Assembly (NCBI GenBank): GCA_038057615.1
Contig: JBBUCW010000011.1
Location: 1-24,454, forward strand
DNA length: 24,454 nt
From: Patescibacteria group bacterium
Lineage (GTDB): Bacteria > Patescibacteriota > Minisyncoccia > UBA6257 > UBA9933
Direction of reading: 5' to 3'
The notes under the pieces were generated by a model that was not told where the DNA came from, searched no databases, and saw only the letters and a program-made list of their open reading frames with translations. Shown here one piece after another: positions 785-9,305 of this stretch. Both the position numbers and the translations under genes were made by a program. Position 1 is the stretch's first letter, and the number at the start of each line of letters is the position of its first letter.

Positions 785-994
785 TTATAATATTCCCATT
801 TTCTTCTCCTTATCCACTTCTTTTTGCTTTTGCTCGCGATGAATGGCGGAGGCTCGCCTTTTTGATTTAGAAATAGAACGGCTTCTGCGTTTTTTCTTTT
901 TTGCTTCAATCAAAATTCCGCTTTGCTGCATTTTTTTGCTAAAGCGGTATAGAAAAGCGCTCATTTGTTCTCCTTCGCGTCGTTTTAATTCCAT
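785..994 (-). CDS. rpsU: 30S ribosomal protein S21 (divergent)
   Basis: 69-aa Lys/Arg-rich protein. 'RREGEQMSAFLYRFSKKMQQSGILIEAKKKK' follows the S21 pattern, and the HIT-rpsU-yqeY order supports the call. Confidence 0.8.
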   Translation of the reverse strand: MELKRREGEQMSAFLYRFSKKMQQSGILIEAKKKKRRSRSISKSKRRASAIHREQKQKEVDKEKKMGIL

Positions 995-3002: not shown

Positions 3003-3551
3003 CTAATACGCCGGCTTCTCAAACGCCATTACCTCATTAAAAGGCCATAGTCTTAATCTGACTAAGCCGACAATTTCAGTTTTTTTAAGACTGCCCCAGC
3101 TCCGAGAATCATAACTATAATTGCGATTATCGCCCATCATAAAATATTCGCCGGCTTTTAAAACAACTTCTTTATCGCCGGAAGTTTTTGTCGTTTGCGG
3201 TAAATAATTTTCTTTAACTGAAAAACCTGCTGGATATTCTTTGTTAAAAACGACAACTTCGCCATTTTTAATTATCAGCCGTTCACCTGGCAATCCGATG
3301 ATTCTTTTAATATAATAAACGCTTTCATCGCCGGGATAGTGGAAAACCAGCACTTCTCCCCGCTCGGGATTTCTAAAACGAAAACTAATTTCATCTATTA
3401 AAAGATAATCTCCCGAAGAAAAATTCGGCTCCATTGAAGCGCCACTGACTAAAAATGGCTGAATTAAAAAAGTGCGAATAATAACAACGGCGATTACCGC
3501 CACGACAACAACCTCAAAAATTTCCCAAAATGAGTATAAAAAAGATTTCAT
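3003..3551 (-). CDS. lepB: Signal peptidase I
   Basis: Catalytic Ser 'VSGASMEPN', Lys 'YYIKRIIGLPGE', and 'GDNRNYSYDSRSWG'. Start moved to M25 (3551) because the 3623 start overlaps pth and encodes low-complexity AT-rich residues. Confidence 0.95.
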   Translation of the reverse strand: MKSFLYSFWEIFEVVVVAVIAVVIIRTFLIQPFLVSGASMEPNFSSGDYLLIDEISFRFRNPERGEVLVFHYPGDESVYYIKRIIGLPGERLIIKNGEVVVFNKEYPAGFSVKENYLPQTTKTSGDKEVVLKAGEYFMMGDNRNYSYDSRSWGSLKKTEIVGLVRLRLWPFNEVMAFEKPAY

Positions 3552-3575
3552 GTATTTTAAATACTTATTTTTTAT

Positions 3576-3583
3576 ATTATAAT
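3576..3583. promoter_or_regulatory. Putative bidirectional -10 element (ATTATAAT) for the divergent lepB/pth pair
   Basis: The palindrome ATTATAAT gives TATAAT on + (3578-3583, 8 nt before the pth ATG) and on - (3581-3576), within a 40-bp intergenic gap. Confidence 0.45.
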
Positions 3584-3591
3584 TAAATTTT

Positions 3592-4140
3592 ATGAAAGTC
3601 AAATTGATTATCGGCTTGGGCAATCCGGGGAAAGAATACGAAAAAACATACCATAATGTCGGATTTTTGGCCGTTGATTACTTAATTGCTCTGTCATCGC
3701 GAGAGAAGCGAAACAATCCCAAAAAAATAGAAATTGCCACGGTCGCCTATAGCGACCTCGCCATGGCGCCTTTGCTAAAAAGCGACGCCTATATGAATCA
3801 ATCCGGTAATTTTGTAAAAACAGCGCTAAAAAAATACAAAGCCAAACCCGATGAAATTTTAATAGTTCATGATGACTCGGATATTGAACTGGGAAAATAT
3901 AAAATTTCTTTCGGTCGCGGATCGGCCGGGCATAAAGGAGTTCAATCAATAATTGACACAATTAAAACAAAAAATTTCTGGCGATTGCGGATAGGTATCG
4001 GACAAACGACAAATGGCAAACAAACAACAACACGAATAAAAGCCATAGATTTAGTATTAAAAAAAATCAATAAAAATGATTTGATAATTTTTGAAAAAAT
4101 TTTTAAAATAATCCAACGCGAAGCGTTGTTGCAAAACTGA
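3592..4140 (+). CDS. pth: Peptidyl-tRNA hydrolase
   Basis: 'IIGLGNPG', 'HNVGF', 'YMNQSG', 'VHDD', 'GSAGHKG' (canonical GHNG) and 'RLRIGIG'. Confidence 0.95.
   Translation: MKVKLIIGLGNPGKEYEKTYHNVGFLAVDYLIALSSREKRNNPKKIEIATVAYSDLAMAPLLKSDAYMNQSGNFVKTALKKYKAKPDEILIVHDDSDIELGKYKISFGRGSAGHKGVQSIIDTIKTKNFWRLRIGIGQTTNGKQTTTRIKAIDLVLKKINKNDLIIFEKIFKIIQREALLQN
3693..3767. repeat. Degenerate REP/RPE-like palindrome lying in-frame within pth
   Basis: GTCATCGCGAG(3693-3703)...CTCGCCATGGC(3757-3767) are 9/11 complementary. Internal GGTCGC-CTATA-GCGACC and CAAT/ATTG stems. Length 75 bp = 25 codons. Confidence 0.65.
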
Positions 4141-4163
4141 TCTTAGCAACAGCAATAATAACT

Positions 4164-5456
4164 ATGACAAAATTTAAAACAGCAATAATTATTTTTGGAG
4201 ACGCGGCCATATTTTATTTGGCTTTGATTTTAACATTAATTACTCGCTACGGCTTTGATAATTTTGAAAAACCGCTAAGCGCCCATCTTAAGCCATTTTC
4301 ATTAATTCTTGTCGTCTGGCTTCTGATTTTTTACATTGTTGATTTATATAAAAGCCGATATTTAAAAATAAATTTAGAAACAATTAAAAATTTAATTTTA
4401 GCGGTTGCCGTCGGCATCATCGCTTCAATCATTCTTTTTTATCTTTTTCCGTCATTTTTCAAACTAACGCCAAAAACCAATTTAATAATTTTCTCTTTAA
4501 TTTTTGGAACCTTAAATATTATTTTTCGATTTGCCATAATGAAAATTTATATTTCCGGCGGCTTTAAAAATCGCCTGCTTTTTATCGGTAATTCGCCGAT
4601 TATCAATGAAGTTATCAATTATTTAAAAAATAATCCCCAACTCGGCTATGATGTTCTCGCTCAAACCAATGAATATTTAAAAATTGAAAATTATCAAGCC
4701 GACACCATTGTCATTCATCCGCATTTTAAAAAAAATCCGGAGTTTATTAAAACAATTTATCGATTGATTCCTCAAAAAATCGCCGTGATTGATTTAACAG
4801 AATTTTACGAAAATATCTTTCAAAAAATTCCCTTGGAAGAGCTTGAAGATGATTGGTTTATAAAAGAGGTTGTCGTCAATCGCCGAATCTATGATTTTAC
4901 CAAAAGAAGCATTGATATTATTCTATCGTTTATCTTAGGGATAATTTTAATTACGATTGCGGTGTTCATCGCCATTATCACTAAATTAAGTCCCCGTAAG
5001 GGACCAACCATCCTAAAACAGGAAAGAGTCGGCTTGAACAATAAAACCTTTATCCTCTTTAAATTCGGCACCATGAGAGAGGATGTTGGAGCCCTTTGGA
5101 CTGCTCATAAAGATGATAGAATCACTGGCCTCGGAAAATTTTTACGCTATACTCATTTGGATGAAATTCCTCAACTTTGGAATATTTTCATGGGCGATAT
5201 TTCTTTTATCGGACCGCGAGCGGAACGAAAAGAACTAGTTGAACTTTACAATCAGCTTCCTTATTACGAAATCCGTCATATTATCAAGCCCGGTCTAACT
5301 GGCTGGGCGCAAATAAATTATAAACCGAGCGCTTCAATTGAAGAAGCGGCTGAAAAACTAAAATATGACATTTATTATATCAAAAACCGCTCGCTAGTTT
5401 TGGATTTTCTAATTTTACTAAAAACCATTAAATATTTATTTATATCATCAAAATGA
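4164..5456 (+). CDS. Polyprenyl-phosphate glycosyl-1-phosphate transferase (WcaJ/WbaP-like priming sugar transferase)
   Basis: N-terminal TM bundle, central Rossmann-like 'LLFIG' region, C-terminal Bac_transf domain 'KRSIDII...DDRITGLGKFLRYTHLDEIPQLWN...GPRAE...KPGLTGWAQI...YDIYYIKNRSLVLD'. Confidence 0.93.
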   Translation: MTKFKTAIIIFGDAAIFYLALILTLITRYGFDNFEKPLSAHLKPFSLILVVWLLIFYIVDLYKSRYLKINLETIKNLILAVAVGIIASIILFYLFPSFFKLTPKTNLIIFSLIFGTLNIIFRFAIMKIYISGGFKNRLLFIGNSPIINEVINYLKNNPQLGYDVLAQTNEYLKIENYQADTIVIHPHFKKNPEFIKTIYRLIPQKIAVIDLTEFYENIFQKIPLEELEDDWFIKEVVVNRRIYDFTKRSIDIILSFILGIILITIAVFIAIITKLSPRKGPTILKQERVGLNNKTFILFKFGTMREDVGALWTAHKDDRITGLGKFLRYTHLDEIPQLWNIFMGDISFIGPRAERKELVELYNQLPYYEIRHIIKPGLTGWAQINYKPSASIEEAAEKLKYDIYYIKNRSLVLDFLILLKTIKYLFISSK

Positions 5457-6919: not shown

Positions 6920-8085
6920 AATAAATTATCAGCGATGGCTTTAATAATTTTTTCAGCCGCCTTGCCGCCTCCATAAGGATTATTGCCAGATGCCATTTTA
7001 TTATAAACATTTTTATTGTCTAATAATAAAAATGTTTCATTGATAATATTTTCTGTTTTTATGCCGACAAGCTTTGAAACACCGGTTTCTATTCCCTCTT
7101 GGCGCTCGGTGATGTCGCGCATTACTAAAACCGGTCTACGGAGAGAAGGAGCTTCTTCCTGAATCCCGCCGGAATCAGTCAAAATCAAATATGATTTTCC
7201 CATTAAAAAAACAAATTCGTCGTATTTTAACGGTTCAATCAAATGGATATTAGAAATACCGCTCAACATTTCCTGCGCCAAATGATAAACATTTGGGTTT
7301 AAATGAACCGGATAAATTATTTCTACATCTTTTCTTTTTTGCGCGATTTCTTTAATCGCCGAAAAAATGTTTTTTAATCCTTCGCCGAAACTTTCTCTTC
7401 TGTGCACCGTAACTAAAATTATTTTTTTATCATTAAAATCAATGTCGTATTTTTTTGAAAAATTATTTTTGTATTCCAATGAATTTTTCTCTTGATTTTC
7501 TTTTATTATAAACAATGCGTCAATTACCGTATTACCAGTTAAAAATATTTTTTCTTCCGCGACTCCTTCTTTTAAAAGGTTGTTTTTTGCCTGTTCTGTG
7601 GGCGCAAAATGAAAATCAGTTAATCGAGAAATAAGCTGGCGATTCATTTCTTCCGGAAACGGGCTGTATTTATCATAAGTTCTTAAACCAGCTTCAATAT
7701 GAGCAATTTTAATTTTAAAATGAAAAGCAAAAAAAGCCGCCAAAAAAGCGGTTGAAGTATCTCCCTGAACCATTAAAATATCGGGTTTTTCTTTTTTAAG
7801 AATCCTTAAGAATTTTAAAAACGAAATTCCGCTTACGGCCAAATTTTTAATTTTTATAAAAATATTAATTCCTTTGCTAAATAATGCTTTATCGCTTAAT
7901 GTAATTTTCAAATCGTAATCCGGCGTAATGTTAAAAACTTTTAATATATGATTGAGCATTTCATCGTGCTGGCGAAAAACACAAACAATGCCTTTTAAAG
8001 AGGAATGATTTTTAATTTCTCTGATTATCGGCGCGAGCTTGATCGCTTCCGGCCGAGTGCCGAATACCATTAAAATTTTTTTCAT
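6916..8085 (-). CDS. wecB: UDP-N-acetylglucosamine 2-epimerase (non-hydrolysing)
   Basis: 'FGTRPEAIK', 'QGDT', 'HIEAGLR', 'FPEEMNR', 'TGNTVIDA', 'HRRE' and 'TDSGGIQEEAP'. Confidence 0.97.
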   Translation of the reverse strand: MKKILMVFGTRPEAIKLAPIIREIKNHSSLKGIVCVFRQHDEMLNHILKVFNITPDYDLKITLSDKALFSKGINIFIKIKNLAVSGISFLKFLRILKKEKPDILMVQGDTSTAFLAAFFAFHFKIKIAHIEAGLRTYDKYSPFPEEMNRQLISRLTDFHFAPTEQAKNNLLKEGVAEEKIFLTGNTVIDALFIIKENQEKNSLEYKNNFSKKYDIDFNDKKIILVTVHRRESFGEGLKNIFSAIKEIAQKRKDVEIIYPVHLNPNVYHLAQEMLSGISNIHLIEPLKYDEFVFLMGKSYLILTDSGGIQEEAPSLRRPVLVMRDITERQEGIETGVSKLVGIKTENIINETFLLLDNKNVYNKMASGNNPYGGGKAAEKIIKAIADNLF

Positions 8086-9305
8086 AATAATTTTTCAAAT
8101 TTATCCACGCAAACTTTTTTTTCCATATTTGTCAAAAGGTATTTCAACCCATTTTCGCCGTATTCTTTCATTTTATCTTTTTCATTATACATTTTTAAAA
8201 TTATTTCTAATGCTTTTTCTCCGTCATCAGAAATTCCACCATAACCGCATTTTGCTTCTTTAACAATCAATAAACCGTCGCTCTCTTTATGAAGAAATGC
8301 GACAACCGGCTTACTAGCCGCCATATAGCCCAAAATCTTTGCCGGCACCGCCGGAGTGGTATTTTGTGAAGTTAAACTGATTATACCGACATCGCAATCT
8401 TTTACCAATTCCGGATATTTTTCTAAAGAAACGAACGGCTTAAAAACAACATTTTCCAGTTTTAATTCTTCCGCCATTTTCATCAACTTTTCTTTTGCTG
8501 AACCGTCGCCAACAAAAAGAAAAATAATGTCTTTATTATTTCTTATTTTATCCGCAATTCTGATAAATAAATCTAACCCTTGCGACGGCCCAAGCACTCC
8601 GCCAAATAAAAATATAAATTTATTTTCCAAACCGTATAATTTCCTAAATCTGCCGGTTTTTTTCGTTTTTAAAAACGGCTCGCTGTCTATCCAATGATAT
8701 ACCACTTGTGTTTTTCCCTTTGGCACATTTCTTTTTTCTTCAATAAATTTTTTATGCTCATTAGAAGGAACAACAATTAAGTCAGAATTTTTATAAGCGC
8801 TTTTTTCCATTCGTTCAAAAAACCAAATAACCGGCCAATATTTCCATTTTTTTAAAACTCCGAGGTCAATGGCGTTTTGAGGAAAAATGTCATGAAGATT
8901 AAGAATATATTTCGCGCCATAAAATTTTTTTATTTTATAAGCGACGAGTGTAAGCGGTAATGGCGGACTGTGAACAATCACAACATCTATTTTTTCTTTG
9001 ATATTTTTTTTGATTTTGCGAAAAAAAATATAAGGCATTAAAAGTTGCGCTATGCCCCTGATTGTAAAATTCACTTTGTGATGAGGAATAGTTTTAATCC
9101 GTAAAACTTGCACCCCGTTTTCATCAGAAATCTCCGGCCAAACAATATTTTCGGAATCCGCCAAGTTATATTTAGGGTAAGAAGTAGCAACATAAACATT
9201 ATGGCCATCATCAGCCAAATCATCAGCCAAATCTTTCATTAATAATGCCGCGGAACGAATTTCCGGCGGATAAGAATCTGTAATAATAAGAATGTTTTTT
9301 TTCAT
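8082..9305 (-). CDS. Glycosyltransferase family 4 (WbuB-like)
   Basis: 'ITDSYPPEIRSAA', 'HSPPLPL', 'HDIFPQNAIDLG', 'GGVLGPSQGLD' and 'PAKILGYMAASKPVV'. Confidence 0.9.
   Translation of the reverse strand: MKKNILIITDSYPPEIRSAALLMKDLADDLADDGHNVYVATSYPKYNLADSENIVWPEISDENGVQVLRIKTIPHHKVNFTIRGIAQLLMPYIFFRKIKKNIKEKIDVVIVHSPPLPLTLVAYKIKKFYGAKYILNLHDIFPQNAIDLGVLKKWKYWPVIWFFERMEKSAYKNSDLIVVPSNEHKKFIEEKRNVPKGKTQVVYHWIDSEPFLKTKKTGRFRKLYGLENKFIFLFGGVLGPSQGLDLFIRIADKIRNNKDIIFLFVGDGSAKEKLMKMAEELKLENVVFKPFVSLEKYPELVKDCDVGIISLTSQNTTPAVPAKILGYMAASKPVVAFLHKESDGLLIVKEAKCGYGGISDDGEKALEIILKMYNEKDKMKEYGENGLKYLLTNMEKKVCVDKFEKLL

What the first reader, a model, noticed from the sequence alone, without database searches (positions are those of the whole stretch)
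3693..3767. REP/RPE-like palindrome translated in-frame inside peptidyl-tRNA hydrolase
Seen: a GC-rich 75-bp (25-codon) segment with terminal inverted arms and internal stems encodes SSREKRNNPKKIEIATVAYSDLAMA (aa 35-59), between the 'HNVGF' and 'YMNQSG' motifs. The opposite strand reads DCFASLAMT. From recall, this matches a widespread palindrome family of the form GTCATTGCGAG...GCAATC...GATTGC...CTCGCAATGAC. Established: Rickettsia palindromic elements insert in-frame into housekeeping genes. Inference: the same phenomenon in a probable CPR genome, in an essential enzyme, with arms decaying under coding constraint.
Basis: partly seen in the sequence, partly recalled or inferred. Interest (0 to 1): 0.7.

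Follow-up and report, generated by a model that had tools for sequence, protein, structure and literature searches.

The report
Hairpin repeat translated inside pth gene
A decayed 75-base copy of a widespread selfish hairpin repeat sits in frame inside the essential peptidyl-tRNA hydrolase gene of an ultra-small groundwater bacterium and is read as an extra floppy loop; this is a clean further example of a phenomenon already in print.

Summary
Window 3693-3767, inside pth (3592-4140, +), is a tail-to-tail pair of two hairpin units. Each unit has the form (T/C)GTC-ATTGC-GAG-[variable hairpin]-CGNN-GCAAT-C.

- The two units match 19 and 18 of 21 conserved positions. Shuffled genomes give 0.05 and 0.28 such sites per genome.
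- The only same-genus genome held (G001) has intact, nested copies at the same nucleotide junction in pth. Sixteen Pth proteins from other genera of the family and order lack the segment.
- AlphaFold models residues 42-60 as a low-confidence coil.
- Contigs from three further groundwater samples carry the same insertion.

No RAYT gene was found. A 96-aa GIY-YIG nuclease gene is bracketed by the same units, in inverted orientation, in G001, in 17 of 30 genomes of the phylum and in Bradyrhizobium. The 75-bp pair therefore looks like a gene-less miniature of that cassette.

This matches the CGTC-tagged REPs (Di Nocera 2013; they include intragenic copies and Rickettsia RPE-4 and RPE-6). It also matches the NTS/Ssn-related motifs with Ssn ssDNA nucleases (Chenal 2025).

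This scan had already reported the sister genome's pth copy (e1-859310). Verdict: a real new member of a known kind, of modest interest.

The parts
3592..4140 (+). pth, peptidyl-tRNA hydrolase, 182 aa, intact host gene
   Evidence: ORF. Pfam PF01195 E 4e-45. PDB Pth chains match at E 1e-28. All 34 columns invariant in the 17-sequence alignment are by definition present in the window's protein, including N11, H21, N69, D94 and D95.
3693..3718 (+). Left hairpin unit: head GTCATCGCGAG, decayed inner part AGAAG, tail CGAAACAATC
   Evidence: 19 of 21 conserved positions. Same left junction ...GCTCT|GTCAT as in the sister genome.
3719..3731 (.). A-rich 13-nt spacer between the two units
   Evidence: Read from sequence. 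Pairs of units in the sister genome have spacers of about 7-13 nt.
3732..3767 (-). Right hairpin unit, read on the minus strand: head GCCATGGCGAG, intact inner hairpin GTCGC-TATAG-GCGAC, tail CGTGGCAATT
   Evidence: 18 of 21 conserved positions. Inner stem predicted. The tail variant CGTGGCAATC is common in sister-genome units.
3694..3768 (+). The 25 codons (residues 35-59) contributed by the element to Pth
   Evidence: Translation. Residues 35-41 extend helix 1. Residues 42-60 are coil, with pLDDT below 50 at 45-55.

Best explanation
Window 3693-3767 is a decayed, gene-less miniature of a GIY-YIG nuclease cassette.

What it is. It consists of two hairpin units in tail-to-tail orientation with their (T/C)GTC heads pointing outward. 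Each unit has a 5-bp closing stem ATTGC/GCAAT, a GAG/CGAA internal loop, a variable inner hairpin that covaries between copies, and an invariant C after the stem.

History. The pair was inserted, in frame and without a stop codon, into the loop between helix 1 and the strand that leads to the MNxSG motif of Pth. That loop is already short and variable in this family. The insertion predates the split of this genome from its sister species G001, which later gained further nested copies at the site. The window's copy has since accumulated substitutions.

Consequence. It is transcribed and translated with pth. It adds about 25 residues that lengthen helix 1 slightly and otherwise form a flexible surface loop. 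The enzyme very probably still works.

Spread (inferred, not shown). Spread most likely depends on an Ssn-type single-domain GIY-YIG nuclease. Such nucleases recognise this kind of hairpin in single-stranded DNA and cut just outside the GTC head. Full-size copies are this gene bracketed by the same two units.
For: Shown here:
- Both units match the family frame far beyond chance.
- The exact 11-mer head occurs 60 times in G001, 5 times in this genome and 0-5 times in 39 other relatives. The reversed control gives 0-1.
- G001 pth has intact nested units at the same left junction and the same right flank.
- Sixteen Pth proteins from other genera lack the segment.
- The AlphaFold model has mean pLDDT 81.8, with coil and low confidence at residues 42-60.
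- Contigs from three more samples in two studies span 3300-3919 with one base difference and no joint.
- Other in-frame copies in this genome use the same SLR reading frame: three in a membrane protein and one forming the gltX C-terminus.
- Units rarely contain stops in the three forward frames: 1, 10 and 3 of 42 units.
- Cassette: the G001 96-aa GIY-YIG gene has units directly before its start and after its stop.
- Homologues of that gene occur in 139 of 401 genomes of the phylum. In 17 of the 30 best loci the same units lie within the roughly 3-kb locus, in most of them directly bracketing the gene in inverted orientation.
- A Bradyrhizobium homologue (E 4e-26) sits among ten such units, and a Sphingomonas homologue has a pair just downstream.

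From the literature:
- SsnA binds NTS hairpins only as ssDNA and cuts a few nt upstream. The NTS-ssnA-NTS architecture is noted as IS-like (PMC11893778).
- Intragenic CGTC REP dimers encoding 20-30 aa are described (PMC3733652).
Against: - The copy is too decayed for an nhmmer profile of the family, and it does not fold better than shuffles.
- No homologue of the bracketed GIY-YIG gene was found in this genome, which is only 75% complete. Its single GIY-YIG gene is of another subtype and is not flanked by these units.
- The published degenerate SRM search string does not match these units, because their left stem starts TGCGAG rather than with pyrimidines (my reading).
- Membership of the nuclease in cd10448/Ssn was not tested directly.
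- No nuclease is known to paste DNA, so the insertion step is unexplained.
- Shared ancestry of the two pth insertions rests on junction identity. The inner sequences differ, so a site-specific hot spot is not excluded.
- Translation of the loop is assumed, not observed.
Confidence: 0.85

Rival explanations
1. Independent insertions at a hot spot. The window's genome and G001 each acquired an element at the same pth position because the site is a preferred target, not because they inherited one ancestral insertion.
For: The inner parts of the two copies align poorly. The family was active after the split: four copies in this genome are absent from the orthologous G001 sites. These are the gltX end, the intergenic pair on contig 23 and two of the three membrane-protein units. 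G001 has stacked several copies at this one site and a further cluster at the pth 3' end.
Against: The left junction is identical to the base. The right flank matches if G001's outermost decayed arm is taken as the orthologue. No target consensus or target-site duplication was seen in the flanks of 60 G001 units.
Confidence: 0.12
2. Exaptation. The element-derived peptide now functionally replaces the beta-hairpin that canonical Pth has at this position and that the nearest relatives have lost.
For: With the insertion, the H21-to-N69 spacing matches canonical Pth: HMMER aligns residues 3-139 to PDB 8axp residues 5-141, placing KKI..EIATVAYSD over the hairpin. More distant relatives keep a hairpin of similar length.
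Against: AlphaFold predicts no strands here and gives pLDDT of about 50. Close relatives function without any such segment. G001 tolerates a 62-aa version of quite different sequence. The equal length may be coincidence.
Confidence: 0.07
3. A classical REP mobilised by a RAYT (Y1/HUH) transposase.
For: General resemblance to REP dimers.
Against: No PF01797 match in this genome (75% complete). The units carry the CGTC-type head, not GTAG, and Di Nocera et al. found no transposase for CGTC REPs. The gene that the units bracket is a GIY-YIG gene.
Confidence: 0.03
4. Chance resemblance or assembly artefact.
For: The copy is degenerate. The genome is a fragmented metagenome bin of 34 contigs.
Against: Shuffle statistics. 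An orthologous intact copy in an independent assembly. Identical contigs in three other samples.
Confidence: 0.01

Closest known systems
CGTC-tagged REPs (Di Nocera, De Gregorio and Rocco 2013, BMC Genomics 14:522, PMC3733652), which include Neisseria dRS3 and Rickettsia conorii RPE-4 and RPE-6
   Same: Shared features: an unpaired CGTC or TGTC head, a stem starting with AT, a short tail (CCA in the alphaproteobacterial copies I retrieved) and mostly dimeric organisation. Copies occur inside housekeeping genes, where dimers encode 20-30 aa. Hosts overlap: Bradyrhizobium, Sphingomonas, Micavibrio, Rickettsiales.
   Different: The paper describes contiguous 8-9 bp stems and 4-5 nt loops. These units instead have a 5-bp outer stem, an internal loop and a variable inner hairpin. 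I could not see the paper's figure of consensus sequences, so I cannot say whether this exact sequence type is one of its four families. The host here is a Patescibacteria-type genome, a group not covered in 2013. The paper found no associated enzyme.
NTS / Ssn-related motifs (SRM) with Ssn single-domain GIY-YIG ssDNA nucleases (Chenal et al. 2025, Nat Commun 16:2388, PMC11893778)
   Same: The hairpin repeat has a conserved GTC(A/T)(T/C) head and an invariant C after the palindrome. A GIY-YIG gene of about 95 aa is bracketed by inverted repeats (repeat-gene-repeat). Both are widespread across phyla. The tyrosine-tyrosine-glutamate spacing of the G001 protein (Y9, Y20, E67) equals that of SsnA (Y6, Y17, E64).
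   Different: The published degenerate SRM string does not match these units. Membership of the nuclease in cd10448 was not checked. In Neisseria the repeats are reported as intergenic modulators of transformation, whereas here most copies are in frame inside genes. This genome has no detected copy of the nuclease.
Rickettsia palindromic elements, RPE-1 type (Ogata et al. 2000, cited from my own knowledge and via PMC3733652 and PMC10969869)
   Same: A selfish palindromic repeat inserted in frame into essential genes of a reduced genome and kept as a surface decoration.
   Different: RPE-1 is about 100-150 bp and of unrelated sequence (not tested here). No nuclease cassette is known for it.

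Membership tests
CGTC-tagged REP superfamily (PMC3733652) | Unpaired terminal CGTC motif (TGTC or CCTC allowed) | tested here: met
   The base before GTC is T or C in 38 of 42 distinct G001 units. It is CGTC in all Bradyrhizobium and Sphingomonas units. In the window's left unit it is TGTC.
CGTC-tagged REP superfamily (PMC3733652) | Stem of 8-9 bp beginning with A-T, T-A pairs, and a loop of 4-5 nt | tested here: inconclusive
   The stem begins ATT and ends AAT. However, only 5 bp are contiguous, followed by a GAG/CGAA internal loop and a variable inner hairpin. The paper notes atypical loops in Bradyrhizobium.
CGTC-tagged REP superfamily (PMC3733652) | Three-base unpaired tail, consensus CCA | tested here: met
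   The tail is CCA in the alphaproteobacterial copies and CT or CC in the Patescibacteria copies.
CGTC-tagged REP superfamily (PMC3733652) | Mostly dimers; intragenic dimers encode 20-30 aa | tested here: met
   The window copy is a 75-bp dimer encoding 25 aa. Many G001 copies are dimers. The paper's head/tail naming could not be compared with mine.
Ssn-related motif with Ssn nuclease (PMC11893778) | Matches the degenerate SRM search string | tested here: not met
   After GTCAT the string requires two pyrimidines within 0-2 nt. These units read TGCGAG (string, checked by hand against units). The NTS itself passes the same reading.
Ssn-related motif with Ssn nuclease (PMC11893778) | Repeats flank a single-domain GIY-YIG gene of about 94 aa on both sides | tested here: met
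   Met in G001 (L189), in the majority of 17 of 30 phylum loci and in Bradyrhizobium. Not met in the window's own genome.
Ssn-related motif with Ssn nuclease (PMC11893778) | The nuclease belongs to CDD family cd10448 | not testable with these tools
   No CDD search is available. Pfam gives only PF01541. NCBIfam has no specific model. The nearest PDB chains are UPF0213 proteins at E 1e-4.
Ssn-related motif with Ssn nuclease (PMC11893778) | The nuclease cuts the repeat only as single-stranded DNA, just upstream of the head | not testable with these tools
   This needs a biochemical assay.
RAYT-associated REP (GTAG type) | GTAG head and a Y1 transposase gene flanked by the repeats | tested here: not met
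   The head is (T/C)GTC. There is no PF01797 match in the genome.

The most novel reading that the evidence does not exclude
The 75-bp pairs are true MITEs of an Ssn-type GIY-YIG cassette that is still mobile in Patescibacteria. On this reading the nuclease both excises and seeds copies through single-stranded DNA. Because the units are stop-free, the family has become a regular source of new loops, termini and even start or stop codons in essential proteins of ultra-small bacteria. In Pth the inserted loop would have taken over the place of a lost beta-hairpin.
Probability: 0.15. Interest if true: 0.55.

Novelty: new member of a known kind. Interest (0 to 1): 0.3.

Why it matters
This is a well-controlled case of a selfish hairpin repeat living inside an essential gene. 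There is an intact orthologue in the sister species, empty relatives, and independent samples. The case also links the small in-frame pairs to a nuclease cassette whose enzyme family was characterised only in 2025.

For annotation, it explains odd GC-rich insertions, spurious antisense ORFs (DCFASLAMT-type peptides) and repeat-derived C-termini in Patescibacteria genomes.

For biology, it supports the idea raised by Chenal et al. that repeat-ssn-repeat units behave like insertion sequences. It adds that, in very compact genomes, their miniatures end up mostly inside coding sequence. It does not reveal a new kind of system.

Tried and rejected
- Rfam scan of 3300-4300 at E up to 10: only noise.
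- Literature searches for the arm sequence and its peptides: only primer coincidences.
- The repeat finder on the region did not list the arms. The single-strand fold was not better than shuffles.
- nhmmer with a profile of G001 units found six other copies in the genome but not the pth copy.
- phmmer of both GIY-YIG subtypes against ORFs of 80 loci around elements from many phyla found nothing. This is uninformative, because each genome has many repeats and few nuclease genes.
- Supplementary files were not held for PMC11893778. Those of PMC3733652 had no occurrence of the motif strings.
- I first suspected there was no insertion at all, because the H21-N69 spacing equals that of canonical Pth. 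I rejected this once close relatives proved to be shorter there.
- A 1-mismatch arm at window 833-843 has no matching tail and is treated as chance.
- No RNA holder was listed among public runs, so expression could not be examined.
- Contigs showed no allele without the element, but contigs drop rare variants.

Full report
**Setting.** The window is contig 11 of a 394.7-kb, 34-contig genome bin that is 75% complete and about 35% GC. Its relatives have genomes of 0.5-0.9 Mb. Public contigs that hold the stretch come from groundwater metagenomes. The gene at 3592-4140 (+) is pth: Pfam PF01195 E 4e-45, with solved Pth structures matching at E 1e-28.

**The observation.**
- They are GC-rich: 0.51 against 0.33 for the contig.
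- They have end arms that are 9/11 complementary.
- They contain a perfect inner 5-bp stem.
- They encode residues 35-59 of Pth. The opposite strand gives WDCFASLAMT within a spurious antisense ORF.
- The codon register is 3694-3768, one base off the element's own ends.

**Anatomy of the repeat.** Sixty units collected from the sister genome G001 define the unit. It consists of:
- a T or C, then GTC;
- a closing stem ATTGC/GCAAT;
- a GAG/CG(A,T,C)(A,G) internal loop;
- an inner hairpin whose two sides change together from copy to copy (CC/GG, GGC/GCC, GTCCCGC/GCGGGAC and others);
- an invariant C after the stem.

Units occur singly, as tail-to-tail pairs with heads outward, or in arrays. The pth segment is such a pair:
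- left unit 3693-3718;
- 13-nt A-rich spacer 3719-3731;
- right unit 3732-3767 on the minus strand, with its inner hairpin still perfect.

**Statistics.** I counted matches to the 21 conserved positions. The left unit scores 19 and the right unit 18. Forty first-order Markov shuffles of the whole genome give 0.05 and 0.28 sites per genome at those thresholds. The real genome has 11 sites at 18 or more. The exact 11-mer head occurs 12 times with up to one mismatch, against 0 for the reversed control.

**Comparative test.**
- Pth was found in 40 of the 41 genomes searched, this genome included. I aligned 17 of these proteins.
- The stretch between HNVG and MNxSG is the most variable part of the protein. 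The nearest genera are much shorter there, for example ...DYFKKCQVSGVKYQVLKSD....
- The only same-genus genome, G001, has at exactly the same left junction (...TTAATTGCTCT|GTCAT...) an intact head. This is followed by a complete nested pair, a further unit and an old decayed arm, and then the same right flank. Its Pth is 219 aa.
- The exact head occurs 60 times in G001, 5 times here and 0-5 times in the other 39 relatives.
- The element therefore entered this genus. The pth copy most simply predates the split of the two species.

The family stayed active afterwards.
- The perfect unit that supplies the last 13 residues and the stop codon of gltX is absent from the orthologous G001 site. So are the intergenic pair on contig 23 and two of the three in-frame units in a membrane-protein gene.
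- The third membrane-protein unit and the unit at the start of a contig-20 gene are shared with G001.

**Not an artefact.** Contigs from three further samples in two studies span 3300-3919, including the element. They show a single base difference outside it and no alternative joint.

**Effect on the protein.**
- All 34 columns invariant across the 17 aligned Pth proteins (N11, H21, N69, D94 and D95 among them) are by definition shared by the window's protein.
- An AlphaFold model built on that alignment has mean pLDDT 81.8. Helix 1 runs to residue 41. Residues 42-60 have no secondary structure, with pLDDT of about 50, and below 50 at 45-55. This fits a flexible surface loop, although the shallow alignment contributes to the low confidence.
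- With the insertion, the protein regains the canonical spacing between H21 and N69. HMMER lays the segment over the beta-hairpin of solved Pth structures. I treat a functional replacement as a low-probability rival.
- The units carry few stops in the forward frames. Every in-frame copy in this genome that enters by its head uses the same SLR frame, while G001's nested pth copy reads in the HCE frame.

**What moves it.**
- No Y1/RAYT gene was found.
- This genome has one GIY-YIG gene, next to smpB and tmRNA. It is of a different subtype and is not flanked by these units.
- G001 has a 96-aa GIY-YIG gene with a unit ending 12 nt before its start codon and units directly after its stop.
- Homologues of that protein occur in 139 of 401 sampled genomes of the phylum, but none was found here.
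- In 17 of the 30 best loci, each from a different genome, units of exactly this family are present. In most of them one unit on the plus strand lies about 40 nt upstream of the gene and one on the minus strand lies just downstream.
- The same holds outside the phylum. A Bradyrhizobium homologue (E 4e-26) lies among ten CGTCATTGCGAG...GCAATCCA units. A Sphingomonas homologue has a pair immediately downstream.
- The short pair is therefore best read as the two ends of this cassette with the gene removed, a MITE-like derivative.
Hosts include Alpha-, Gamma- and Deltaproteobacteria, Chloroflexi, Nitrospirota, Planctomycetota, Bacteroidota, cyanobacteria, Rickettsiales and Patescibacteria.

**Comparison with what is known.** Two papers cover the ground.
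- Di Nocera et al. 2013 defined CGTC-tagged REPs. These have a CGTC or TGTC head, stems beginning with AT and CCA tails, are mostly dimers, and had no known transposase. The authors equated them with Neisseria dRS3 and R. conorii RPE-4 and RPE-6. They also catalogued intragenic dimers encoding 20-30 aa in housekeeping genes.
- Chenal et al. 2025 showed that the NTS form of dRS3, and related motifs in many phyla, flank a 94-aa GIY-YIG gene, ssnA. Its product binds the hairpin only as single-stranded DNA and cuts a few bases upstream of the head. They noted that repeat-ssnA-repeat looks like an insertion sequence.

The present units share the head, the AT-first stem, the C after the stem, the tail, the dimer habit, the host range and the bracketed small GIY-YIG gene. 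The G001 protein has the same Y-Y-E spacing as SsnA. They differ in having an interrupted stem. They also fail the published degenerate search string. I could not test cd10448 membership.

I therefore file the element as working like an SRM or CGTC-REP and as a probable, not proven, member of that class.

**Relation to earlier work of this scan.** A look-up by sequence returned an earlier report on another genome that shares all 31 sampled words with the G001 pth segment (e1-859310). It describes the same repeat in pth, parB and other genes and names the Ssn paper. That note gave me the literature lead. I re-derived the pth orthology and the nuclease association independently. Other notes pointed to the CGTC-REP paper.

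**Verdict.** This is a new member of a known kind. What is inferred rather than shown:
- that the loop is translated and harmless;
- that one ancestral insertion underlies both species' copies;
- that an Ssn-type nuclease mobilises the family.

Noticed in passing
L005 (G000 contig 24), contig coordinates 1579-1611: A perfect single unit forms the last 13 residues (SSLRGVKRRSNLK) and the TAA stop of the glutamyl-tRNA synthetase gene. The stop overlaps the ATG of the next gene. The orthologous site in the sister genome lacks the unit, so this looks like an insertion, or a retention, specific to this lineage.
   Followed up: partly
L001:141-1001 (-) (G000 contig 4), compared with L242: A 286-aa membrane-protein gene downstream of clpB carries three in-frame single units, all read in the SLR frame, and a CAATTAC x4 tandem. 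Only the third unit is shared with the sister genome. At the other two positions the sister genome has TCAATAG-type 7-mer tandems.
   Followed up: partly
L039:1501-1935 (G000 contig 9, about 7832-8262): An 87-aa GIY-YIG gene of another subtype lies between smpB and the tmRNA gene. It is followed by two tandem copies of an approximately 88-nt double hairpin that is unrelated to the GTCATTGCGAG family.
   Followed up: no
L013, L020, L038, L027, L010, L017 (pth of relatives), loop after RLRIGIG: A second variable loop of Pth holds another in-frame GC-rich hairpin (GGCGGGC-TT-GCCCGCC, peptide AGLPAKALRAKAG) in three genera. It also holds 7-8-nt tandem repeats (GTGTCAAG, AAAATCA), which appear in the first loop of some relatives too.
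   Followed up: no
L012:1861-1995, compared with window 4100-4160: The sister genome's pth has a second cluster of units at its 3' end that supplies its C-terminus. The window instead has a short unrelated tail containing the mini-hairpin CAACGC-GAA-GCGTTG (4114-4128), which may or may not be a remnant.
   Followed up: partly
L190:2341-2835 (G001): An RNase H gene of the sister genome carries an in-frame pair of units (SLRAEGEAIPKRLPRAKALAMT). It lies just downstream of a second-subtype GIY-YIG gene.
   Followed up: no
window 3608-3961 (-): A 117-aa antisense ORF across pth is kept open partly by the stop-free element. It is likely to be miscalled as a gene and is a source of DCFASLAMT-type hypothetical proteins.
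   Followed up: no
L200 (G001 contig 10, 438-660): A head-to-tail array of at least five units, joined by a constant linker CGACACGAAGT that can itself form a small hairpin with the next head.
   Followed up: no
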